A DNA stretch of 38,198 nucleotides from Candidatus Kerfeldbacteria bacterium RIFOXYC2_FULL_38_9. GTDB taxonomy: Bacteria; Patescibacteriota; Patescibacteriia; UBA9570; XYC2-FULL-38-9. Where the stretch lies: assembly GCA_001818355.1 (NCBI GenBank), contig MHKJ01000034.1, forward strand, positions 12,723-50,920, given 5' to 3'. Of this stretch, positions 1 to 31,435 are shown piece by piece. The notes under the pieces are model-generated. The model was given only the letters and a program-made list of their open reading frames with translations, searched no databases and was not told where the DNA came from. Position numbers and translations under genes: made by a program. Each line of letters begins with the position of its first letter. Position 1 is the stretch's first letter.

Positions 1-10
1 TAAGTGTTTG

Positions 11-47
11 CTAACGCAACGGTAATGGCGCGAACGATGTGCGAAAT
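11..47 (+). repeat. 37-nt intergenic element, copy A (CTAACGCAAC-N9-GCGAAC-GATGTGCGAAAT)
   Basis: Same length and architecture as 28951..28987 and 30962..30998. Shares CGCAAC...GCGAACG with 29702..29738. Follows a TAA at 1..3 and ends 12 nt before ATG 60. Confidence 0.6.
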
Positions 48-59
48 AGTAAACTTTTT

Positions 60-566
60 ATGACAATGAACAAAGTTTTAATCATAGGGATAAGTGGAAC
101 AGGTAAAACAGGGTTGGCAAAAAAAATATCCGATTTTTTAAAAATTCCAGTCACCCATTATGACGAGTTTGTTTGGGATGAAAACTGGAATGAAGTGGAT
201 GAAAAAATAGTAGAGCAAAAATTGGAGGAGGTTATCAAAAAGGATGGGTGGATTATTGAGGGTTTTATACACCCAGCCGCTAAGAGCAAATTAAAAAATG
301 CTGACACTGTAATTTATTTAGATTATTCTGGCTGGCAAGCATTTTTGGGCGGTTTAAACAGGTGGTGGATATACCGAGGTAAAACAAGGCCGGAGATGGC
401 AGCTGGGTGTATTGAAGATTTTAACTGGAATTATTTAAAAGTCATGTGGAAACGTGCAGAAAGACAGGAAATTGAGGAAACAATCAAAGGATTTGAAAAT
501 AAAATGATTCGCCTAAAAACAAGAAGCGAGACGGATAATTTTCTTGCCAAACTGCTTGCGAAGTAA
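60..566 (+). CDS. Small P-loop NTPase, adenylate-kinase / topology-modulation (FlaR)-like
   Basis: ORF 39..566. Walker A GISGTGKTG follows directly after MNKVLIIG, so ATG 60 or 66 is a more likely start than 39. About 170 aa, typical of stand-alone AAA/adenylate-kinase-like proteins. Confidence 0.6.
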   Translation: MTMNKVLIIGISGTGKTGLAKKISDFLKIPVTHYDEFVWDENWNEVDEKIVEQKLEEVIKKDGWIIEGFIHPAAKSKLKNADTVIYLDYSGWQAFLGGLNRWWIYRGKTRPEMAAGCIEDFNWNYLKVMWKRAERQEIEETIKGFENKMIRLKTRSETDNFLAKLLAK

Positions 567-581
567 AAAGTTTACTACACC

Positions 582-718
582 GCACAACAGCCGATATGCG
601 GTTCAAGAAAAAGAATGATAAATATTTTCAGCGGATACTTTTTTCTCTCACCCATATTTCGCACAAATTTAATTTTTAAGGAGTGTGCGAAACATCGCAT
701 ATCGGCGTTAGACGAAAT
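582..718 (+). repeat. 137-nt imperfect palindrome, long form of the intergenic element family
   Basis: GCACAAC-A-GCCGATATGCG (582..600) pairs with CGCATATCGGC-GTTAGAC (696..713); the 11-bp arms are perfect. Nested hairpin TTTCGCACA (657..665) / TGTGCGAAA (684..692). Ends GTTAGACGAAAT like the other copies. Confidence 0.7.
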
Positions 719-838
719 AAATTTTTTATCTTAGTGGTAATTTTAGGGTTTTGGTGATATAAATAAAAACAGAAAATTTTATTTTTAATTTATTTAAAGA
801 GGGGTAACAAGGAATTTTTTCTTCTTTTATATTTTTCA

Positions 839-6894: not shown

Positions 6895-7911
6895 ATGAAA
6901 AAAACCGTTTTAACTATTTTGCAAAACTACCCCTTAAGTGCGGTTAAAAAAATCCAGCCCATTGCCATAGGTTGGGTAAATAAAAATTTTTATATTACAA
7001 CCGACCAAGGAGATTATGTATTACAGCGCTTGGCGCCGGTTTTTGATGAACGCACTATTGAAGATATAGCTCTGGTGGTTGCCCATCTAAATAACAAAAA
7101 GGTTCCTACTTTGAAATTAACCAAAACCAAGCGGGGTGGCTGGCATCATAAACACGATGGTCATTTGTGGAAACTGATGCAAGCGATTAAGGGGGAGACT
7201 CACGAAGAGATACGATCTGATAAAATGGCCTATGAAGCCGGGCGTGCCTTAGGAGAATTTATTCAAGGCATGAAGGATTTTAATAGCAAACAATTAAAAA
7301 ACCCTTTGCGCTTACATCAAACCGCTCAAGTTTATGCGGCTTATTTAAAAATCTATAGTCAATTAACTGAGCAAGAAAAAAATACTGCTCTGTTGTCTTG
7401 TTTTTCTTATATTAAAGAACAGTTACCACAAATGATGCTACCGGAAAGTCTGCCACAAAGCATTGTGCATGGCGATCCAAAAATTTCTAACATTATTTTT
7501 CAAGGAGAGCATGCCTGTTGCATGATCGATTTAGACACCTGTATGTTACACACTCCTTTGGTGGATATTGGCGATGCCATGTGGTCATGGTGCGGCCAGG
7601 CGGAAGATTGCCTAGAAAACACTTTTTCTCTCAGTCGTTTTAAAGAAGCCTTGCGTGGTCTTACTCTTTCCTTGGAACTTTCTGCTGACGAAAAAAAATA
7701 CATTTATCAAGCCCTGCAAATGATTACTTTGGAACTAGCTTCTCGCTTTGCCAAAGATATTGTGGAAGACGCTTATTTCGGTTGGAATCAAAATAAATAT
7801 TCTTCTCGGAGCCAACATAATCAAGCGCGTGTTCGCAGTTTAGTGCATCTTTCTCTGGATATGTGCGCCAAAAAAGAAGCTATTGAAAAAATTGTCTTTC
7901 CACAAAATTGA
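6895..7911 (+). CDS. Phosphotransferase (APH / homoserine-kinase type II / choline-kinase fold) family protein
   Basis: Catalytic-loop motif VHGDPKISNIIF and metal-binding MIDLDT. N-terminal GWVNKNFYITTDQGDYVLQR is typical of this kinase family. Substrate cannot be inferred. Confidence 0.7.
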   Translation: MKKTVLTILQNYPLSAVKKIQPIAIGWVNKNFYITTDQGDYVLQRLAPVFDERTIEDIALVVAHLNNKKVPTLKLTKTKRGGWHHKHDGHLWKLMQAIKGETHEEIRSDKMAYEAGRALGEFIQGMKDFNSKQLKNPLRLHQTAQVYAAYLKIYSQLTEQEKNTALLSCFSYIKEQLPQMMLPESLPQSIVHGDPKISNIIFQGEHACCMIDLDTCMLHTPLVDIGDAMWSWCGQAEDCLENTFSLSRFKEALRGLTLSLELSADEKKYIYQALQMITLELASRFAKDIVEDAYFGWNQNKYSSRSQHNQARVRSLVHLSLDMCAKKEAIEKIVFPQN

Positions 7912-7951
7912 CGAAATGGGCTTTGTTTTGTATCGTTATATAGCTTTAAAT

Positions 7952-15993: not shown

Positions 15994-16338
15994 TTAATTT
16001 TTTAAAAAATGTATTTTTATCAGCGCTTGGGTAATTTCTTTTTTAATCTCAGCAAAAGAGGTAAGGGCAATATCTGGTTTAACGCAGATTACCACATCAT
16101 AACCAACCTGGGTCTGTTTGGCAACGGAAAGTAAAGCGTTGCGAATTTGTCTTTTTTTCTTATTGCGCTGTACGGCCTTTTTTATCACTTTATTAGACAA
16201 CACCACTCCAAAACGAGTGTTTTTTAGGTCATTTTTAGCGGTTTTGATAAAAAAAAGCTTGGTGCTGAGAGTTTTTCCGTTTTTGTAAACTCGGGAAAAA
16301 TCCGTGTTTTTTCTTAAACGCTGTCGCACTTTCAACAT
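15994..16338 (-). CDS. rnpA: Ribonuclease P protein component
   Basis: [15 protein letters not shown] near the N-terminus. Basic 114-aa protein located between rpmH and yidD. Confidence 0.88.
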
Positions 16339-16354
16339 GTTTGATATTAAAAAA

Positions 16355-16501
16355 CTAAGCGGTTAATTTTTTTCGGCCTTTAGCTCTTCTTCTTTTAACC
16401 ACGTTATTTTTTGCTGATTTTCCGCCTTTTTCTTTACGCGCAAAAAAACCGTGTTTCTTGCTTTTTTTTCTTTTGTTTGGCTGATAGGTTCTTTTTGGCA
16501 T
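16355..16501 (-). CDS. rpmH: 50S ribosomal protein L34
   Basis: Not in the ORF track because it is under 60 aa. My reverse-strand translation is MPKRTYQPNKRKKSKKHGFFARKEKGGKSAKNNVVKRRRAKGRKKLTA*, the classic L34 pattern, immediately upstream of rnpA. Confidence 0.9.
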   Translation of the reverse strand: MPKRTYQPNKRKKSKKHGFFARKEKGGKSAKNNVVKRRRAKGRKKLTA

Positions 16502-16693
16502 CTTGTTAAATTACTTAATAGTAAATAACACTATACCATGGTTTTTGTTTTTCTCCAAGCCCAAAACCAAATCAACAAGCTATACACATCTTATAAACAA
16601 CATATTAACTTTCTTGTAATTTTTATTGTGTTCGAAAAATAACCAGACTGTGTTAGTATAAATAATACGGTTTTATTTTTTACAAAAATCAAT

Positions 16694-18097
16694 ATGACAT
16701 CGGAAGAATTGTGGGATGCGGCTCTGGGAGAATTAGAGCTGGAGCTTTCAAAAGCAAATTTTACCACCTGGTTAAAGGGAACTTTTATTTTAAAATACCA
16801 AGATAGCAACGTGGTGGTGGGGGTTCCCAATGCTTTTACTAAAGATTGGTTGGAAAAAAAATATCACCACCCCATTGTAAAGGCTTTGCGCCACATTTCG
16901 GATGAAGACGTAAAAACCGTAACCTATGCTGTTTCTGGAAAAACAACTCAAGCTAAAAAAATACCAACGGAAGAAAAAACAAAACAACCAGAAAAACCAA
17001 GTGAACAAAAAATCGTCAATAAAATCAGAGATTATAAAATTAACACTAATAATGTTCTTAAAAAAACCGGAGTAAATCTTACCCTTAATCCCAAATATAC
17101 TTTTGAAAATTTTGTGGTTGGTAAAAAAAACGAACTGGCTCATGCCGCGTGTATGGCGATAGCGGAAAAACCCGGCTTGGTTTATAGTCCTTTGTTTATT
17201 TTTGGCGGAGTAGGTTTGGGAAAAACCCATTTAATGCAGGCGGTGGGCAATCGGGTAAAAGAAAAAAGCGCTGATAAAAAAATACTTTATGTTACTTGTG
17301 AAACCTTCACCAACGAATATATCCGTTCGGTTGGTGAAGGCCGCGCCAGTCAATTCAAAGAAAAATTTCGTTCGGTAGATATCTTATTGGTCGATGATGT
17401 GCAGTTTTTGGCCGGTAAAGAAGGAACGGCCGAAGAATTTTTTCACACCTTTAATCATCTGCATCAACAAAACAAACAGGTAATTGTAACTTCCGACCGA
17501 CCGCCACGCGCCATTCCTACCCTGGAACAGCGCCTGGTCTCTCGTTTTGAAGGCGGTATGATTGTAGATGTTAACACTCCCGACCTCGAAACCAGAATTG
17601 CTATTTTAAAAACCAAATGTGCCGCCGGCGGCTACAACCTTAATGCGGAAATATTACAATTTATTGCTTCCAACGTGCAAAACAACGTGCGAGAGTTGGA
17701 AGGCGCCCTCAACAGAGTGATAGCCAATCAACAGCTTACCAAAAAAGAACCCACCCTGGAATCGGTGAAAGAGCTTTTGGCTTCTTATTCGGAAACACCA
17801 AAAAGAGGAGCGATTACTACCAAAAAAATACTTTCTACCGTAGCTGACTTTTTTGATATTTCTGTTCCTGATATTTCCGGCGACAGTAGAAAAAAAGAAC
17901 TGGTAGTACCAAGACAGATTGCGATGTATTTAATGAGGGAAGAAATTAATTCTTCTTTTCCCAATATTGGACAAGAGTTGGGGGGAAGGGATCACACCAC
18001 CGCCATGCATGCTTGTCAAAAGATTTCTAAGTTGGTAGAAGGAGATGAAAAAATGCACGACGATATCAACCTCATTAAACAACGTTTGTATAATTAA
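16694..18097 (+). CDS. dnaA: Chromosomal replication initiator DnaA
   Basis: Domain I LWDAALGELELELSKANFTTWL, Walker A GGVGLGKTHL, Walker B LLVDDVQFL, sensor VREIEGAL-like NVRELEGAL, domain IV GGRDHTTAMHA. Confidence 0.97.
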   Translation: MTSEELWDAALGELELELSKANFTTWLKGTFILKYQDSNVVVGVPNAFTKDWLEKKYHHPIVKALRHISDEDVKTVTYAVSGKTTQAKKIPTEEKTKQPEKPSEQKIVNKIRDYKINTNNVLKKTGVNLTLNPKYTFENFVVGKKNELAHAACMAIAEKPGLVYSPLFIFGGVGLGKTHLMQAVGNRVKEKSADKKILYVTCETFTNEYIRSVGEGRASQFKEKFRSVDILLVDDVQFLAGKEGTAEEFFHTFNHLHQQNKQVIVTSDRPPRAIPTLEQRLVSRFEGGMIVDVNTPDLETRIAILKTKCAAGGYNLNAEILQFIASNVQNNVRELEGALNRVIANQQLTKKEPTLESVKELLASYSETPKRGAITTKKILSTVADFFDISVPDISGDSRKKELVVPRQIAMYLMREEINSSFPNIGQELGGRDHTTAMHACQKISKLVEGDEKMHDDINLIKQRLYN

Positions 18098-18315
18098 CAT
18101 CTTGTGGATAGAACGGTTAAAAACCTGTTCAAAAAAGGAGGAAAAAAAACAACAAAACTTATCCCCTGTTTATCCTAGGAAAAACCACAACACTTTTCCC
18201 AACCATATCCACATTAAAAAACAAAATCCGCGCTTCAAAAATAAAAACAAAAAAGAGTTTTCCACTTAACCACACCCCTTATTATTATCATTATTAATTT
18301 AATATAAACTCTTAT
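18098..18315. other. Candidate oriC (DnaA-box cluster plus AT-rich unwinding tract)
   Basis: DnaA-box-like 9-mers: TGTGGATAG (18103..18111), TTATCCCCT (18159..18167), TTATCCTAG (18170..18178), ATATCCACA (18205..18213), TTTTCCACT (18258..18266). Then TTATTATTATCATTATTAATTTAATATAAA (about 18279..18310) just before dnaN. Confidence 0.6.
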
Positions 18316-19440
18316 ATGAAATTCTCTTGTACACAAGAAAACCTTAATCGAGGTTTGCAAAATCTTATTCACCTTACTAGTAAAAATGTTAATTTGCCCA
18401 TTTTGCATAATGTCTTAATTGAAACCCGAGAATCCGGAATAGATCTTATTGCTACCAACCTGGAAGTGGGGTTGCGAATTCACCTTCGAGGAAAAATTGA
18501 AGAAAGCGGATCTTTTACCGTACCAGCCAATTTACTTGCTAATTACGTTGGTTTATTATCTGCCGAGAGAGTAGATGTTTTTCTGGAAGAACCAAACATG
18601 ATTATTAGCGCCGGTAATCAACAAACTAAAATCAAAGGAGAAAAATCCTCCGAGTTTCCCATAGTACCGGAAGTGGAAAAAAATAACCGCGTTTTAATTC
18701 CAATTAAAGAACTTAAAACCGCCATCAAACAAAGTGTTATTTCCGCTTCCCACGATATCGCCAGACCAGAAATTTCCGGAGTTTTATTTTATTTAAAAAA
18801 TAGATTGGTGACTATTGCGGCCACCGACAGTTATCGGCTCACAGAGTGTATTATAAACTTAACAGAAGAAATCACAGAAGAAAAAAAGGTTATCATACCA
18901 ACCCCAACCCTAGGAGAGCTTTCACGAATTTTCCCGGAAACAGACGCCGAAGACAGTGTAGAAATATATTTTGGGGATGGTCAGATTTTATTTCAAACCA
19001 AAGAATTTAAGATGACCAGCCGTTTAATTGAGGGGCAGTTTCCTGATTATAAACAAATCATTCCCAAACAAGAACGTACGGTAGTTGTGGTTGATAAGGT
19101 GGCTTTTATCAAAGCCATTAAAGCGGCTAGTTTGTTTTCTAAATCAGGTATTCACGATGTAAACATGCATTTTTCCCCAGAAAAACAAACAATTACTTTA
19201 ACCACAGTGAACAACCAAATAGGAGAAAACACTACCAAGATAGAAGCCGAGATTGTTGGCGACTCATCTAATAGTTCGGTACTTAATTACCGCTATTTAC
19301 TGGAGGGGCTTTCTAATATTCCCACGCAAAAAGTAAGGATGTATTTGGCGGACAGTACCACTCCGGTTGTGTTTCAACCCCACGGAGACAAAGATTTAAG
19401 AAAAACTTACACTTATATTGTAATGCCCATCAAACAATAA
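18316..19440 (+). CDS. dnaN: DNA polymerase III beta sliding clamp
   Basis: MKFSCTQENLNRGLQ, ILHNVLIE, and ATDSYRL motifs. 374 aa. Directly after dnaA. Confidence 0.95.
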   Translation: MKFSCTQENLNRGLQNLIHLTSKNVNLPILHNVLIETRESGIDLIATNLEVGLRIHLRGKIEESGSFTVPANLLANYVGLLSAERVDVFLEEPNMIISAGNQQTKIKGEKSSEFPIVPEVEKNNRVLIPIKELKTAIKQSVISASHDIARPEISGVLFYLKNRLVTIAATDSYRLTECIINLTEEITEEKKVIIPTPTLGELSRIFPETDAEDSVEIYFGDGQILFQTKEFKMTSRLIEGQFPDYKQIIPKQERTVVVVDKVAFIKAIKAASLFSKSGIHDVNMHFSPEKQTITLTTVNNQIGENTTKIEAEIVGDSSNSSVLNYRYLLEGLSNIPTQKVRMYLADSTTPVVFQPHGDKDLRKTYTYIVMPIKQ

Positions 19441-26380: not shown

Positions 26381-28350
<1,970 letters not shown>

Positions 28351-28354
<4 letters not shown>

Positions 28355-28773
28355 AGAAAACGGTTTTAGTTTTCGGTACGTTTGATTTATTCCATCCGGG
28401 ACACCGATTTTTTTTGCAAGAAGCTAAAAAGCACGGTGATTTTTTAGTGGTGGTGGTGGCGCGAGATCAAAATGTAAAAAAAATAAAAGGAAAAAAACCA
28501 AACGAAGACGAGAAAACCAGAAGAAGCCTGGTCGCCAATTTTTCCGCAGTAGACAAGGCGATTTTAGGCTATCAAGACTGGAAAAAACACGAACAAGTTT
28601 TACAAGACATAAAACCAAATGTTGTTTGTTTAGGCTATGATCAGCAGGCAAAAATAGCGCCAGGCACCTGGGAAATAGTACGCCTACCATCTTTTCATCC
28701 GGAAAAATACAAAACCTCTCTTTTGGTTAAAAAAACCCCAAGAGAAGCTACCAAAAAAAATTTTCACAAATAG
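28351..28773 (+). CDS. Cytidylyltransferase-fold nucleotidyltransferase (RibL/TagD-like)
   Basis: VLVFGTFDLFHPGHRFFLQEAKKHGDFLVVVVARD carries the HxGH signature. 140 aa. Overlaps uvrB by 4 nt (ATGA). Confidence 0.7.
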
Positions 28774-28810
28774 ACCATAAGACGCTCTTGCCAACCAATA
28801 TTGAGTTCGC

Positions 28811-28913
28811 CTAACTACCTATATACCAGTCAACCCCACCACTGTGGATAATGGAGTTGATTTTGTTCTTGATAAGGCTTGTTGTTTTTCCAAACAGCCC
28901 TGTTGATTTTTAG
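28811..28913 (+). repeat. ~103-bp direct repeat, copy 1 (contains a terminator-like hairpin)
   Basis: Hand alignment to 30826..30926 gives 9 mismatches plus a 2-nt indel; the last 53 nt differ at 1 position. Preceded by and overlapping GCCTAAC (28809..28815). Hairpin AAGGCT..AGCCC(T) with a T-rich tail at about 28874..28910. Confidence 0.85.
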
Positions 28914-28950
28914 TTTTTTGTTAGCTAAAATTTAAGGTATGATACAGGAG

Positions 28951-28987
28951 TTAACGTAACACTAGTGGTGCGGGCGTTATCGGAAAT
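28951..28987 (+). repeat. 37-nt intergenic element, copy B (TTAACGTAACACTAGTGGTGCGGGCGTTATCGGAAAT)
   Basis: Same 37-nt architecture as copies A and C. The ends TTAACG / CGTTAT are near reverse complements. Ends 26 nt before ATG 29014. Confidence 0.6.
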
Positions 28988-29013
28988 TTCATTAATAATT
29001 TACTTTTATCAAT

Positions 29014-29646
29014 ATGGTTTCAGAAAATTCATTATCACCCTTGTATCAATTTATTCAAGAAGTACAAAAATTAAAGTATATTGATAGAGCGGTTTTGGCA
29101 ACTGAGAGCAGGAAAGAAAGTTCTGCAGAACATTGTTGGTCAGTTGGAGTTATTGTATGGTTTTTGTCAGATGCTTGGAAAAAAGAATTTAATACTGACA
29201 TTGATGTAAACAAAATCATTAAGATGGCTTTAATGCATGACATTATCGAAGTTCGGGTTGGTGATGTTTCGGTTTGGGACAAAAAAAAGAGATTACAGAT
29301 TGAACAGAAGGAGAGGGACGGCTTTATGTCTATCATAAGTACTCTGCCAACTTCTTTACAGACAGAATTGGCATCATTATGGAATGAATTACAAGAAGGA
29401 CAAACTCTGGAAAGTAAAATGGTGAGTGGTGCTGATAGGTTAAGCGCTGCTATCCAACGTTTGATTACTAAACAAGGCTGGGTCACAGAAGGTCATAATG
29501 AAAAGGATTTGGATGGTATTCAATTACCAAAAATAAACTTTAGCAAAGTTCTCCTTTCTTTCTATAATGAAATAAAACAAGAATCGTTTAATAACGGTTT
29601 ATTAGAAAAATCCTCATCTGATGAAATTTCCGATAACAGCAAATAA
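29014..29646 (+). CDS. HD-domain phosphohydrolase, YfbR-like 5'-deoxynucleotidase family
   Basis: LKYIDRAV...ESSAEHCWSVGVIV...MALMHDIIEVRVGDV...GADRLSAAIQ fits the H...HD...D metal-ligand pattern and spacing of the YfbR/HD_3 group. Confidence 0.7.
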   Translation: MVSENSLSPLYQFIQEVQKLKYIDRAVLATESRKESSAEHCWSVGVIVWFLSDAWKKEFNTDIDVNKIIKMALMHDIIEVRVGDVSVWDKKKRLQIEQKERDGFMSIISTLPTSLQTELASLWNELQEGQTLESKMVSGADRLSAAIQRLITKQGWVTEGHNEKDLDGIQLPKINFSKVLLSFYNEIKQESFNNGLLEKSSSDEISDNSK

Positions 29647-29664
29647 ACGCAATTGCTTCACATC

Positions 29665-29738
29665 GGTTGTGATGTTATGCTAACTTTATCACAACCTTGT
29701 TTCGCAACTGGTGTTTACCTGCGAACGTTAGGTGAAAT
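29665..29738 (+). repeat. Intergenic element, copy D, with an extra perfect hairpin
   Basis: GGTTGTGAT (29665..29673) / ATCACAACC (29688..29696) with CTAAC in the loop (29680..29684). Then CGCAAC-N12-GCGAAC-GTTAGGTGAAAT (29703..29738). TTCGCA/TGCGAA inner stem. Ends 16 nt before ATG 29755. Confidence 0.65.
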
Positions 29739-29754
29739 TTCTAAAAAATTATTT

Positions 29755-30369
29755 ATGAACAAGCTGGAAAAATTTATTATCAATCCAACAAATGAATTTC
29801 ATATTCTTAGGCACTTTAGATATGTAGATGATTACTACAAAAAAACTCTTATTGGACAACTATATTGGTTTTATGACTACGGTCAAAAGAAGTTTGTTTC
29901 TTCGAAAATTTCGCAAATTGACATTGAAAATGCTCTAAAAACAATCGGCACTAAATTTGAAAAAAATATTATTGGTATTGAATCCCCAAAAAAACCACTA
30001 GAAATAATCAAGAATAGATTTCAAGAATTACTATCGAACAACAAAATTTATTGGATTGATAATCTCGAATACAAAACTATTGCATTTACATTTGATTACC
30101 AATTTTTTGTGGGCCAAATGAATTGTTTAAATAAGGATAGTATTCTTGAAAGAGACAAAAACCGAATCAAGCCGGTTTTGAAAAGTAAATGTGCAGGAGA
30201 AAATGCAGTTATTGTAAATACTATTTCCGACATAGAATTATCTTCTACAAAATCAATCCATGTAGAAATCGTTGAAACAAAACAACTACCGTTTTACACA
30301 ATAACCGCATTTCCAGATTGTTCACTTTCAGATGACATTCCAGATGAAAATATTGTTTTTGTAGTATAA
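29755..30369 (+). CDS. Hypothetical 204-aa protein (orphan)
   Basis: ORF 29653..30369 opens at TTG inside the palindromic element, so ATG 29755 (MNKLEKF) is preferred. No family recognised. Confidence 0.5.
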   Translation: MNKLEKFIINPTNEFHILRHFRYVDDYYKKTLIGQLYWFYDYGQKKFVSSKISQIDIENALKTIGTKFEKNIIGIESPKKPLEIIKNRFQELLSNNKIYWIDNLEYKTIAFTFDYQFFVGQMNCLNKDSILERDKNRIKPVLKSKCAGENAVIVNTISDIELSSTKSIHVEIVETKQLPFYTITAFPDCSLSDDIPDENIVFVV

Positions 30370-30413
30370 TTTTTTAGAAACACCACATACACATCTTCAC
30401 ATTAAGTCAAAAT

Positions 30414-30425
30414 GTTAGGTGTAAT
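30414..30425 (+). repeat. Right-end motif of the intergenic element (GTTAGGTGTAAT)
   Basis: 11/12 identical to GTTAGGTGAAAT at 29727..29738. Ends 14 nt before ATG 30440. Confidence 0.5.
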
Positions 30426-30439
30426 TTTTTCCTTTAACC

Positions 30440-30829
30440 ATGAAAGATATAATAATTAAAAAATCAGAAAAGCATTGCCGCGGCGTTTTTGTTGCTAGAA
30501 ATTTTAAAAAAGGCGAAATAGTTGTTCCTTGGGTAGTCAAAAAAATTCTTGATAAGCAAGAATTATCATCATTAACACAGCAAGAAAAAGAATATGTTTC
30601 AAAAAGAGAGGACGGCAAATATGTTTTGTTTGCAGAGCCTGCCTGTTGCGTTAATCATTCTTGCGATCCAAACACAAAATCAGAAAACAATGCCAATGTA
30701 GCAATACGAGATATTAAAAAAGGTGAGGAAATCACCACGGATTATGAATTAGAAGGAGCGCTAAACAAATTTAAGTGTTCTTGCGGTAGCAAAAATTGCA
30801 GAGGCTCAATCGGAGAAAATTACATCTAA
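30440..30829 (+). CDS. Minimal SET-domain protein (putative lysine methyltransferase) with post-SET Cys cluster
   Basis: GRGVFA-like CRGVFVARNFKKGEIV, NHSCDPN, GEEITTDY, and C-terminal FKCSCGSKNCRG (CxCx4C post-SET). 129 aa. Confidence 0.8.
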   Translation: MKDIIIKKSEKHCRGVFVARNFKKGEIVVPWVVKKILDKQELSSLTQQEKEYVSKREDGKYVLFAEPACCVNHSCDPNTKSENNANVAIRDIKKGEEITTDYELEGALNKFKCSCGSKNCRGSIGENYI

Positions 30830-30926
30830 CTATCCATATACCAATCAACCTCACCACCGCGGATAAGGGTTAATTTTGTTCTTGATAAGGCTTGTTGTTT
30901 TTCCAAACAGCCTTGTTGATTTTTAG
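30826..30926 (+). repeat. ~103-bp direct repeat, copy 2 (contains a terminator-like hairpin)
   Basis: Starts within the stop codon region of the SET gene (ATCTAAC 30824..30830). Hairpin AAGGCT(T)GTT / AAC-AGCCTT at 30887..30914, followed by GTTGATTTTT. Confidence 0.85.
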
Positions 30927-30961
30927 CTTGGTTGTGGTATTTTTAAGATACTTTATTTATT

Positions 30962-30998
30962 CTAACGCAATACTGGCGCTAGAAACGTTGGGTAAAAT
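30962..30998 (+). repeat. 37-nt intergenic element, copy C (CTAACGCAATACTGGCGCTAGAAACGTTGGGTAAAAT)
   Basis: Ends CTAACG / CGTTGG (5 of 6 complementary), with a central near-palindrome CTGGCGCTAG. Ends 24 nt before ATG 31023. Confidence 0.6.
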
Positions 30999-31022
30999 TA
31001 ATTTTAGTAAAACCACAAAACT

Positions 31023-31394
31023 ATGCTGGTTGTTAAAACAAAGATAAAAGAAATAAACGGAAAGGGGATCGGCTTAATTGCTGATCAAGAAATTAAAAAA
31101 GGTCAACCAACCTGGGTTTTTAATTCCGTTATTGATATAAAAGTTAACAAAAAAGACATTCCTAAATTTGCAAAAGAATTTTTTGAAACGTATGCTGTTG
31201 ATATAGGAAAAGACTATGTTTATTTAAATATAGACAATGCCAGGTTTAAAAATCATTCCAACAATCCAAACACAAAAAGCCTCGGGTTATACAAAGACAA
31301 CATTGCTACAAGAGACATTCATGTCGGAGAAGAAATTACCATTGATTATAACGAAATTGATGTAAACGGAGTTGATTTTAATACTGAAAATTAA
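31023..31394 (+). CDS. Minimal SET-domain protein, second divergent copy (no post-SET cysteines)
   Basis: GKGIGLIADQEIKKGQ, RFKNHSNNPN (NHS.xPN), GEEITIDY. 123 aa. Confidence 0.7.
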   Translation: MLVVKTKIKEINGKGIGLIADQEIKKGQPTWVFNSVIDIKVNKKDIPKFAKEFFETYAVDIGKDYVYLNIDNARFKNHSNNPNTKSLGLYKDNIATRDIHVGEEITIDYNEIDVNGVDFNTEN

Positions 31395-31402
31395 GTTATT
31401 CA

Positions 31403-31435
31403 GCCTAACTTGACGAAGCAAAGGAAAGGTGAGAT
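31403..31435 (+). repeat. Degenerate copy of the intergenic element (GCCTAAC-N18-GGTGAGAT)
   Basis: GCCTAAC as at 28809. GGTGAGAT resembles GGTGAAAT of copy D. Ends 13 nt before ATG 31449. Confidence 0.4.

What the first reader, a model, noticed from the sequence alone, without database searches (positions are those of the whole stretch)
28811..30926. ~103-bp direct repeats bracket the HD / orphan / SET module (2,015-bp period)
28811..28913 and 30826..30926 align with 9 mismatches and one 2-nt indel by hand. The 3' 53 nt differ at a single base.

Each copy begins at an RYYYAAC heptamer next to the stop codon of the upstream gene: GCCTAAC after the cytidylyltransferase-fold gene, and ATCTAAC overlapping the TAA of the first SET gene. 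Each copy contains a terminator-like hairpin and is followed about 35-40 nt later by a 37-nt element.

The structure is [repeat + element]-HD-orphan-SET1-[repeat + element]-SET2. That is what a cassette-block insertion or duplication would leave behind. It also provides substrates for RecA-mediated loss of the 2-kb block.

The 5' halves have diverged much more than the 3' halves, suggesting either selection on the hairpin half or a recent conversion tract. Copy 1 carries a perfect DnaA box (TGTGGATAA, 28843..28851), which is CGCGGATAA in copy 2.
Basis: seen in the sequence. Interest (0 to 1): 0.6.

Follow-up and report, generated by a model that had tools for sequence, protein, structure and literature searches.

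The report
Junction repeats of integron-like cassette array
The two ~105-base repeats are real, but they are two of at least six copies of a folded "junction" element that sits between single-gene modules, each framed by its own inverted repeat, in an ultra-small groundwater bacterium. The layout works like an integron gene-cassette array and is not the scar of one 2-kb insertion.

Summary
**Observation.** Confirmed. 28811-28916 and 30826-30929 align over 106 columns at 88.7% identity (E 8e-31), with a 37-nt identical core.

**Interpretation.** Only partly right.
- The pair is not unique. The same organism carries at least four more copies (c3-c6) behind unrelated genes, each at single-copy depth.
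- No single-repeat (deleted) allele appears in any of about 20 independent contigs or in 8 metagenome runs.
- c1 is a mosaic. It matches c3 on both flanks and c2 in a ~43-nt centre, so a conversion tract is supported.

**New result.** Every small accessory gene next to these elements is framed by its own 15-27-bp inverted repeat: HD, orphan, SET1, SET2 (weaker), a SWEET-like gene, a 166-aa gene, a small membrane protein and an aminotransferase.
- The outer ends read GTTAGG... and ...CCTAAC, which is the integron core-site consensus (GTTRRRY / RYYYAAC).
- Seven of 51 genes exceed the 99th percentile of mismatched controls. No housekeeping gene does.
- The finding's repeat starts exactly after that TAAC.
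- Other junctions fold as AAC | L'' - variable hairpin - L' | GTT, like attC sites.

**Best reading (about 0.5).** These are junction (attC-like) elements of an integron-like cassette array in a Patescibacteria chromosome.

The parts
28809..28916 (+). Copy c1 of the family-A junction repeat (5' module). It contains GCCTAAC 28809-28815, Block 1 TAACTACCTATATACCAGTCAA 28812-28833, hairpin A about 28829-28861 (includes TGTGGATAA 28843-28851), hairpin B 28873-28901, and a T-run from 28907.
28917..28975 (+). 3' module of the c1 junction. It carries TTAGCTAAAATTTAAGGTATGATACAGGA and then the small palindrome GTTAACGTAAC..GGGCGTTA (28950-28979). Positions 28908-28967 are 97% identical to copy c3.
28976..28992 (+). 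Left arm of the HD module: GTTATCGGAAATTTCAT
   Evidence: (I4, 17/17 complementary)
29014..29646 (+). HD_3 / YfbR-like gene (cassette cargo)
29621..29637 (+). Right arm of the HD module, ATGAAATTTCCGATAAC. It lies inside the last codons of HD.
29638..29726 (+). B-type junction hairpin (HD to orphan). Layout: AGCAAATAAACGCAATTGC .. hairpin GGTTGTGAT/ATCACAACC .. GCAACTGGTGTTTACCTGC + GAAC. It measures 103 nt from the ..TAAC of the HD arm to the GTTAGGT of the orphan arm.
29727..29752 (+). Left arm of the orphan module: GTTAGGTGAAATTTCTAAAAAATTAT
   Evidence: (I2)
29755..30369 (+). 204-aa orphan gene (cassette cargo)
30366..30389 (+). Right arm of the orphan module, ATAATTTTTTAGAAACACCACATA. The outer end is degenerate.
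   Evidence: (I2, 24 nt, 83%)
30414..30432 (+). Left arm of the SET1 module: GTTAGGTGTAATTTTTTCC
   Evidence: (I7)
30440..30829 (+). SET-domain gene 1 (cassette cargo)
30812..30830 (+). Right arm of the SET1 module, GGAGAAAATTACATCTAAC. It covers the last 5 codons plus the stop. Its final TAAC is the first base run of repeat copy c2.
   Evidence: (I7, 19 nt, 89%)
30824..30931 (+). Copy c2 of the family-A junction repeat (5' module)
30932..30986 (+). 3' module of the c2 junction: TTGTGGTATTTTTAAGATA .. TCTAACGCAATACTGGCGCTAGAAAC. It is 80% identical to the tail of copy c5.
30987..31011 (+). Left arm of the SET2 module: GTTGGGTAAAATTAATTTTAGTA
   Evidence: score 9.5, weaker
31023..31394 (+). SET-domain gene 2 (cassette cargo)
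31382..31409 (+). Right arm of the SET2 module: TACTGAAAATTAAGTT..GCCTAAC
1..37 (+). Tail of family-A copy c5. The body of c5 lies just left of the window start, at L014:8898-9190, after a SWEET-like (MtN3/PQ-loop) gene.
38..60 (+). Left arm of the 166-aa module, TGTGCGAAATAGTAAACTTTTTA. The right arm is at 564-586. A B-type junction hairpin follows: AGCCGATATGCG .. CGCATATCGGC | GTTAGAC.

Best explanation
**What it is.** The two repeats are members of one family ('A') of about 105-130-nt folded junction elements. These elements separate single-gene modules in an integron-like cassette array on a Patescibacteria (CPR) chromosome.

**Shown.**
- Each accessory gene is a discrete module with the layout 5'-GTTAGGnGAAAT + unique arm - ORF - complementary unique arm + ..CCTAAC-3'.
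- The A element begins immediately after that TAAC. It ends a few bases before the GTT of the next module.
- A second junction family ('B') folds as AAC | L'' - variable hairpin - L' (with one extra base) | (GAAC) | GTT. This is the R''-L''-VTS-L'-R' plan of attC sites.
- Members of family A exchange segments with each other. c1 is a mosaic of c3-like and c2-like parts.

**Inferred.**
- The modules are gene cassettes, captured and shuffled by a site-specific recombinase acting on these folded sites.
- In that model, A and B are the cassette-associated recombination sites, comparable to the repeat families of sedentary chromosomal integrons. Alternatively A is an insertion into such a site.
- c1 marks the start of the array, directly behind the conserved uvrB / cytidylyltransferase genes.
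- The left-arm motif GTTAGGTGAAAT probably also serves as each cassette's promoter -10 region.

The 2-kb spacing between c1 and c2 is simply three cassettes (HD, orphan, SET1). It is not a unit of insertion.
For: **Family membership.**
- c5 is at L014:8886-9200, after a SWEET-like gene.
- c3 and c6 are on L042/L083, after a Bro-N gene and after a small membrane gene.
- c4 is on a 12.4-kb Logan unitig.
- Depths track the organism across runs. X1: c1 19.4, c2 22.3, c3 20.2, c4 17.7, c5 20.3, c6 21. X6: 5.3, 4.9, 5.4, 5.8, 5.9, 7.8.
- Sequence shared by exactly two copies sits at about 2x depth (46.1 and 34.3).
- All six copies are co-oriented with both neighbouring genes. Each lies 0-60 nt after a stop codon.

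**Gene-specific inverted repeats.**
- I compared the upstream 60 nt of each of 51 genes with the reverse complement of its own 3' end, using mismatched gene pairs as the control.
- Seven genes score at or above the 99th percentile (12.0), and each ranks first in its row: 166-aa 15.5, HD 17, orphan 15, SET1 14, SWEET-like 22, small membrane protein 12, aminotransferase 19.
- No housekeeping gene does. Arms and ends are listed.
- Three of these pairs had been reported blind by the repeat finder (I2, I4, I7).

**attC-like folds of B junctions.**
- AGCGCGTATGCG / CGCAT[T]ACGCGC + GAAC + GTTAGGT.
- AGCGTCTATACGAC / GTCGTAT[G]AGACGC + GGAC + GTT (75 nt).
- AGCCGATATGCG / CGCATATCGGC + GTTAGAC.

**Other support.**
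- Homology between family members stops at TAAC| on the left and within 3-8 nt of |GTT on the right.
- The region is variable. In a relative, the cytidylyltransferase gene and rpsT are separated by one unrelated gene instead of HD-orphan-SET-SET-1135aa.
- The cassette regions have low GC, 0.33-0.35 against about 0.40.
- SET and HD homologues in other genomes sit in different neighbourhoods.
- The SET homologue at 71% identity again has GTTGGAT 14 nt before its ATG and ACCTAAC over its stop.
Against: - No recombinase gene occurs in the ~85 kb examined.
- No excision or deletion junction, and no empty site, was seen in any assembly or Logan contig set. Only contigs were available, not raw reads, so rare variants would be missed.
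- The sites are not canonical attC sites:
  - sizes run from 75 to about 300 nt;
  - GTTRRRY holds for only about half of the left ends, and RYYYAAC for about half of the right ends;
  - the unpaired spacer lies on one side only;
  - the complementarity of a cassette's own ends (15-27 bp) far exceeds the canonical 7 bp.
- Family A itself folds less cleanly than family B. It has 36 extra nt before the GTT. A test for terminal inverted repeats was not significant.
- The conserved left end GTTAGGTGAAAT also resembles a promoter. A similar GTTAGTATAAAT precedes dnaA. Part of the conservation may therefore be transcriptional.
- The inverted repeats could act in RNA rather than DNA.
- HD homologues at 61-64% identity in other genera lack a clear repeat of their own, so no compensatory evolution could be shown.
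Confidence: 0.5

Rival explanations
1. **RNA-level modules.** The inverted repeats flanking each gene pair the 5' and 3' untranslated ends of each message, as processing or stability stalks like those around rRNAs. The A and B elements would be 3'-UTR / terminator-plus-promoter intergenic modules. They would have spread and been homogenised by gene conversion, with no cassette mobility.
For: - All six A copies are co-oriented with transcription and lie 0-60 nt after a stop codon.
- Every full copy has a small hairpin followed by a T-run in the same alignment column, although the stem sequences differ.
- The 3' part carries a motif, GCGAACGTT-N4-GAAAT, that recurs 14-26 nt before at least 11 start codons. 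A variant precedes dnaA.
- Gene conversion between copies is evident.
Against: - No canonical terminator was detected in the repeats.
- Plus-strand folding is not better than shuffles. No Rfam family matches.
- If GAAAT is the -10 element, a cassette's own transcript would lack the outer half of the left arm. Yet the complementarity runs to the very ends, GTTAGG / CCTAAC.
- This reading does not explain why only accessory, low-GC, variable-region genes carry the arms.
- Three metatranscriptomes gave no coverage, so there is no RNA evidence either way.
Confidence: 0.2
2. **Small non-autonomous transposable element.** Family A would be a MITE-like element, or a derivative of the IS200/IS605 type, that targets the sequence (C)TAAC. 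It would have landed repeatedly in junctions that already ended in CTAAC.
For: - The element is bounded by TAAC on the left. A second (C/T)TAAC follows 9-18 nt after its right inverted-repeat-like segment. This is CTAAC..CTAAC in c2 and c5.
- Short and long forms exist. c5 and c6 carry an extra ~140 nt.
- In every copy the minimum-energy fold closes the element by pairing TACCT / AGGTA (TATC / GATA in c2, one compensatory change).
Against: - Complementarity of the terminal inverted repeats is no better than in shuffles (shuffles reach the score in 107-413 of 1000).
- The orientation is always the same relative to genes.
- No empty site and no transposase were seen.
- No copies occur outside cassette junctions in about 95 kb.
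- No relatives were found in the viral, phage, genome or metagenome collections, apart from the same organism's own contig.
Confidence: 0.15
3. **The first reader's model.** The two repeats are the direct-repeat scar of one insertion or duplication of the 2-kb HD-orphan-SET1 block, which can be lost again by homologous recombination.
For: - The two copies are 2,013-2,015 nt apart in direct orientation and share a 37-nt identical core.
- The region is variable compared with a relative.
Against: - At least four further copies lie behind unrelated genes.
- c1 is closer to c3 than to c2 outside a ~43-nt tract.
- The three genes between the copies are each separately framed modules.
- Interior depth is not lower than flank depth (22.3 vs 19.4 in X1), and no joint from 28.8 kb to 30.8 kb was found.
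- All assemblies carry the same arrangement.
Confidence: 0.05

Closest known systems
Sedentary chromosomal integrons and CALINs (arrays of attC sites without a nearby integrase), for example the Vibrio repeat (VCR) arrays
   Same: - One-directional array of small, diverse, low-GC accessory genes.
- Each gene is followed by a folded imperfect-palindrome site whose ends read ..YAAC and GTT.. (RYYYAAC / GTTRRRY).
- The right end often overlaps the stop codon.
- Sites within a genome fall into highly similar repeat families of about 100-130 nt.
- B-type sites have paired inner boxes, a variable apical hairpin and a single extra base.
   Different: - No IntI, attI or Pc was found within ~85 kb.
- Site sizes run from 75 to about 300 nt, against 57-141 nt.
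- The core consensus is met in only about half of the sites.
- The unpaired spacer lies on one side only.
- Each cassette's own two ends pair over 15-27 bp, so the gene itself sits in the loop of a long hairpin.
- Cassettes seem to carry their own promoter-like motif.
- The host phylum is Patescibacteria. I found no description of integrons in this phylum in the searched literature.
Modular intergenic repeats and MITEs (pneumococcal BOX and RUP, Neisseria Correia elements, enterobacterial ERIC)
   Same: - About 100-300-nt multi-copy intergenic elements with a modular make-up.
- Both short and long forms occur.
- They form secondary structure.
- They are co-located with gene ends.
- Copies exchange segments with each other.
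   Different: - No significant terminal inverted repeats.
- Orientation relative to genes is strictly fixed.
- Copies occur only at the boundaries of inverted-repeat-framed gene modules.
- Copy number is very low (at least six).
dif modules of Acinetobacter plasmids (gene modules bounded by inversely oriented XerC/D sites)
   Same: Discrete gene modules are bounded by inverted recombination-site-like sequences and arranged in rows.
   Different: - Here the arms are module-specific, apart from about 12 conserved outer bases.
- There is no 11-6-11 Xer site architecture. A resemblance of GGTGCGGATAA in c5 to the XerC arm has no proper partner arm.

Membership tests
Integron / attC cassette array | Integron integrase (IntI, a tyrosine recombinase with the extra IntI-specific domain) next to the array, with attI and Pc | tested here: not met
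   Pfam scans and precomputed Pfam annotation found no recombinase. They covered all called genes from 9 kb left of the window to 10 kb right of it, and the 8.6-kb c3/c6 contig. The rest of the genome could not be searched. CALIN-type arrays also lack a nearby integrase.
Integron / attC cassette array | Sites bounded by RYYYAAC (5') and GTTRRRY (3') | tested here: inconclusive
   TAAC / AAC and GTT are nearly universal at module ends. The full RYYYAAC holds in 5 of 10 right ends: c1, c2, the SET2 arm, the B junction on L014, and the L011 SET homologue. The full GTTRRRY holds in 6 of 13 left ends.
Integron / attC cassette array | Folded R''-L''-variable loop-L'-R' structure with extrahelical bases, 57-141 nt | tested here: inconclusive
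   B-type junctions have paired 11-14-nt inner boxes, a variable apical hairpin and one extra base. Two are in the size range (75 and 103 nt) and two are larger (178 and ~195 nt). The spacer is one-sided (GAAC). Family A, the subject of this finding, fits worse: 166-300 nt, with 36 extra nt before the GTT. The IntegronFinder attC model was not available.
Integron / attC cassette array | Co-oriented array of small accessory ORFs whose content varies between relatives | tested here: met
   HD, orphan, SET1 and SET2 are all on the + strand, 123-210 aa, with GC 0.34-0.35. A relative has one unrelated gene between the cytidylyltransferase gene and rpsT. Homologous SET and HD genes sit in other contexts elsewhere.
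MITE | Terminal inverted repeats | tested here: not met
   In the best left/right complementarity test for each copy, shuffles reach the observed score in 107-413 of 1000 trials.
MITE | Target-site duplication and presence/absence polymorphism | tested here: inconclusive
   (C)TAAC occurs at the left edge and again 9-18 nt beyond the right segment in all five full copies. It is the same sequence everywhere. No empty site was found.
Intrinsic (Rho-independent) terminator | G+C-rich stem directly followed by a T-run | tested here: not met
   The consensus scan finds no terminator-like site in either repeat. Hairpin B is 6+3 bp with a bulge, and the T5 run starts 6 nt after it. A weak hairpin plus T-run is nevertheless present in all copies.
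DnaA-box cluster (origin-associated or DnaA-titrating site) | Several closely spaced TTATCCACA boxes, conserved between copies | tested here: not met
   There is one box per copy. It is perfect in c1, c3, c4 and c6, has one mismatch in c5 and two in c2. The window's likely origin lies at dnaA / dnaN (16.3-18.3 kb), 10-12 kb away.
Known RNA family (Rfam 15) | Match to a curated covariance model | tested here: not met
   There is no match at gathering score. No meaningful match appears at E up to 5 over c1, c2 and c5.

The most novel reading that the evidence does not exclude
Patescibacteria run an active gene-capture system that works on the integron principle but with its own site geometry.
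- Chromosomal rows of single-gene cassettes have ends that pair with each other over 15-27 bp.
- The cassettes are chained through folded junction sites bounded by ..TAAC | .. | GTT...
- The recombinase is encoded elsewhere and need not be a classical IntI.
- The family-A repeat of this finding would be one of the functional recombination sites.
- The arrays here flank the replication origin region.
Probability: 0.35. Interest if true: 0.8.

Novelty: new variant of a known kind. Interest (0 to 1): 0.6.

Why it matters
CPR / Patescibacteria have tiny genomes and are thought to carry few repeats and few mobile elements. How they acquire and exchange accessory genes is poorly understood.

A cassette array with folded boundary sites would give them an integron-like route for gene capture. 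It would also extend the integron principle to a new phylum and to a different site geometry.

Practical consequences:
- These repeats break metagenome assemblies. The window itself starts inside copy c5, and contigs end at c3 and c6.
- The GTTAGG.. / ..CCTAAC arms give a simple rule for delimiting accessory-gene modules in such genomes.

If the RNA rival is right instead, this would be an unusual case of gene-by-gene 5'/3' end pairing in bacterial messages.

Tried and rejected
No genome-wide copy count or recombinase search was possible.

**Searches for further copies or relatives.**
- An exact pattern of Block 1 found nothing in genome contigs or metagenome contigs.
- A looser pattern gave 19 + 23 + 17 hits. 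All were at chance level except L042, which is the organism's own c3/c6 contig.
- blastn against phages gave no match.
- Walking 9 kb left and 10 kb right of the window found only c5.

**RNA evidence.**
- Rfam at gathering score and at E up to 5 gave nothing.
- Three metatranscriptomes gave zero coverage.

**Tests that came back negative or unhelpful.**
- I searched SET1 homologues for a protein ending ..EISGYIT, the gene before c4. None was found.
- SET1 homologue contigs carry no repeat.
- The terminal-inverted-repeat test for family A was not significant.
- I looked for a partner arm for the sequence before c1. None exists upstream.
- HD homologue contigs were fetched to look for compensatory changes in the arms. 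The homologues are too distant and have no clear arms.

**Ideas considered and dropped.**
- A conserved small ORF in the repeat: frames are not conserved between copies.
- A dif / Xer site: there is no 11-6-11 architecture.
- An IHF site.
- A sigma-70 promoter inside the repeat: only c1 has a 9/12 match.
- Similarity of the repeat to the SET2 3' end (20 of 26 nt): this is at chance level for the region.


Full report
**1.

- A self-blastn of the window gives 28811-28916 vs 30826-30929: 106 columns, 88.7% identity, one 2-nt indel, E 8e-31. There is no further copy in the 38 kb.
- The gap-free core 28856-28916 / 30869-30929 is 95% identical.
- A 37-mer is shared exactly. It occurs in none of 100 shuffles.
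- GCCTAAC starts 36 nt after the cytidylyltransferase stop, not beside it.
- The 'terminator-like' hairpin is weak. No intrinsic-terminator pattern is called in either copy. Plus-strand folding is not better than shuffles (z -0.7 and -0.9). The minus strand of copy 1 scores z -3.5 through G-U pairs, but this is not conserved.

**2. Context**

- The window comes from an ultra-small groundwater bacterium. Homologues are annotated as Patescibacteria, and the runs are groundwater metagenomes.
- Gene order around the finding: uvrB 26381-28354, a cytidylyltransferase-fold gene 28351-28773, HD 29014-29646, a 204-aa orphan 29755-30369, SET 30440-30829, SET 31023-31394, a 1135-aa protein, then rpsT.
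- The window also holds rnpA, dnaA and dnaN at 16.0-19.4 kb, which is the replication-origin region.

**3. The pair is not unique**

Logan contigs of four metagenomes break at the repeat, as expected for a repeat. They also reveal further copies at the organism's own depth.

- The 40-nt unitig shared by c1 and c2 is at 46.1, against 19.4-22.3 for the flanks. That core therefore exists exactly twice.
- Partial relatives exist. c3 is on a 2,373-nt unitig at depth 20.2. c4 is on a 12,440-nt unitig at depth 17.7.
- Walking left of the window gave c5. It lies immediately before the window start, after a SWEET-like (MtN3/PQ-loop) gene.
- A loose pattern scan of the metagenome collection gave L042, which holds c3 and c6 on either side of a small membrane-protein gene. 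The same contig is MHKH01000013.1 of an NCBI genome bin.
- c5 and c6 are long forms with an extra ~140 nt. Their shared insert unitig is at 34.3, against 20-22 for each flank, which means two copies.
- Depths of all six copies co-vary across runs, so they belong to one genome.
- An nhmmer profile of the family finds no more copies in the ~95 kb that I hold.

**4. No alternative allele**

- About 20 contigs from ENA, JGI, NCBI and Logan assemblies carry the identical arrangement.
- No joint links 28.8 kb to 30.8 kb. Interior depth (22.3) is not below flank depth (19.4).
- Only contigs could be laid, not raw reads, so rare variants are not excluded.

**5. Mosaic structure**

Identity of c1 to c3 and to c2, by segment:

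| Segment | c1 vs c3 | c1 vs c2 |
|---|---|---|
| 28811-28864 | 51/54 | 44/54 |
| 28865-28907 | 20/43 | 42/43 |
| 28908-28967 | 58/60 | 34/60 |

- c4, c5 and c6 carry c1/c2-type centres, so that centre is ancestral.

**6. What the repeat abuts**

A contig showed that the sequence just after the SWEET-like gene is the reverse complement of the sequence just before it. The repeat finder had already listed such pairs around HD (I4, 17/17), the orphan (I2, 24 nt) and SET1 (I7, 19 nt).

I tested this systematically.
- For each of 51 genes, I aligned the upstream 60 nt to the reverse complement of the gene's own 3' end.
- All mismatched gene pairs served as the control: mean 7.4, 99th percentile 12.0.
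- Seven genes reach the 99th percentile, and each ranks first in its row: 166-aa 15.5, HD 17, orphan 15, SET1 14, SWEET-like 22, small membrane protein 12, aminotransferase 19.
- SET2 is weaker (9.5). No housekeeping gene qualifies.

The arms are listed.
- Left arms begin GTTAGG(T/G)GAAAT or GTTAT.., 3-45 nt before the start codon.
- Right arms end ..CCTAAC or ..ATAAC. Some lie inside the last codons (HD, SET1).
- Only the outer ~12 nt are shared between modules. The inner part is module-specific but complementary: 25/27, 22/24, 21/23, 17/17, 17/19.
- The finding's repeat starts exactly after the TAAC of the upstream module's right arm. It runs to a few bases before the GTT of the next module's left arm.

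**7. Other junctions**

- A second family, B, fills other junctions.
- The general plan is AAC | AGCGCGTATGCG .. variable 10-bp hairpin .. CGCAT[T]ACGCGC | GAAC | GTTAGGT.
- Four examples span 75, 103, 178 and ~195 nt. Their paired inner boxes differ in sequence but keep the pairing.
- This is the R''-L''-variable loop-L'-R' plan of integron attC sites.
- The end motifs match the integron core consensus in about half of the cases.

**8. Variable region**

- In a relative (57% identical cytidylyltransferase), uvrB, the cytidylyltransferase gene and rpsT are kept. A single unrelated gene replaces HD-orphan-SET-SET-1135aa. Another relative differs again.
- The cassette stretches have GC 0.33-0.35, against about 0.40.
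- Homologues of SET1 and HD in other genomes lie in unrelated neighbourhoods.
- The 71% SET homologue again has GTTGGAT 14 nt before its ATG and ACCTAAC over its stop.

**9. Reading**

- Shown: a repeat family at module junctions, gene-specific framing repeats, attC-like folds at B junctions, exchange between copies, and a variable region.
- Inferred: the modules are cassettes moved by site-specific recombination at these folded sites. Family A is then either a recombination site family or an insertion into such a site.
- I put this at about 0.5.

Points against:
- no recombinase in ~85 kb;
- no excision product seen;
- non-canonical site geometry;
- the left-end motif looks like a promoter -10 region, and a variant precedes dnaA;
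- family A folds less cleanly than family B, and shows no significant terminal inverted repeats.

The main rival is an RNA-level role: paired message ends and terminator-plus-promoter modules. It cannot be tested, because three metatranscriptomes gave no coverage.

**10. Comparison and novelty**

- The closest known systems are sedentary chromosomal integrons and integrase-less attC clusters.
- The differences are listed under Membership tests. The locus cannot be filed as a classical integron.
- Full-text searches found no description of integron-like arrays in CPR / Patescibacteria.
- After my own, I found that earlier notes of this scan describe the same architecture in other Patescibacteria genomes. 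Some of those arrays lie beside a Xer-like recombinase.
- Those notes are unchecked AI notes. One related bold reading has since fallen. I use them as leads only.

Noticed in passing
L014:8990-9130 and L042 (reverse strand), about 7790-7925 of the reverse complement: The long forms c5 and c6 share a ~140-nt insert. Its central ~75 nt (GTTCATGGTAGCAACCAGGGCGACTCGATATGGCTTTCC..GAAATTAC) are identical between the two copies, while the flanks differ by about 12%. The insert is G+C-richer than its surroundings and contains a 21-codon ORF (MVATRATRYGFPSDLFFWKNR). It has no Rfam match.
   Followed up: partly
window 29919-30300: In the soil metagenome run X3, a second 382-nt unitig (depth 6.3, against 15.2 for the reference form) differs at 39 positions. 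The differences lie only inside the orphan gene, and the flanks are identical. This is a localised divergent allele of one cassette's cargo.
   Followed up: no
window 29753-29805: A 7,152-nt contig at the organism's depth (20) in run X1 matches the first ~50 nt of the orphan ORF with 7 mismatches and then diverges. It is a paralogous gene start elsewhere in the genome.
   Followed up: no
window 15994-19440: The window holds the replication-origin region: rnpA (-), dnaA and dnaN. Three one-mismatch DnaA boxes lie in the dnaA-dnaN spacer (18103, 18205, 18266). Cassette arrays lie on both sides, about 17 kb to the left and 10-12 kb to the right.
   Followed up: partly
window 706-822 and L042 reverse complement 2524-2636: The ~120-nt leader before the 302-aa gene is 77% identical to the leader before a BtrH_N/DUF4872 gene on the c3/c6 contig. 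Both begin with GTT(A/G)(G/T)ACGAAATAAATTTTTTATC. This is a further shared intergenic module.
   Followed up: no
L065:9995-11975 (JGI contig C687J26609_1000160): In this assembly uvrB is called as two ORFs (481 + 181 aa) instead of one of 657 aa. This is a frameshift, or an assembly or strain variant.
   Followed up: no
L042 / L083, genes before c3: The c3/c6 array sits next to Bro-N and RhuM-family genes. These gene types are common on phages and genomic islands.
   Followed up: no
window 28740-28815: An A8 run (28752-28759) lies near the end of the cytidylyltransferase gene. A one-base frameshift there would extend the ORF by 14 codons, ending exactly at the TAA of GCCTAAC (28812-28814).
   Followed up: no
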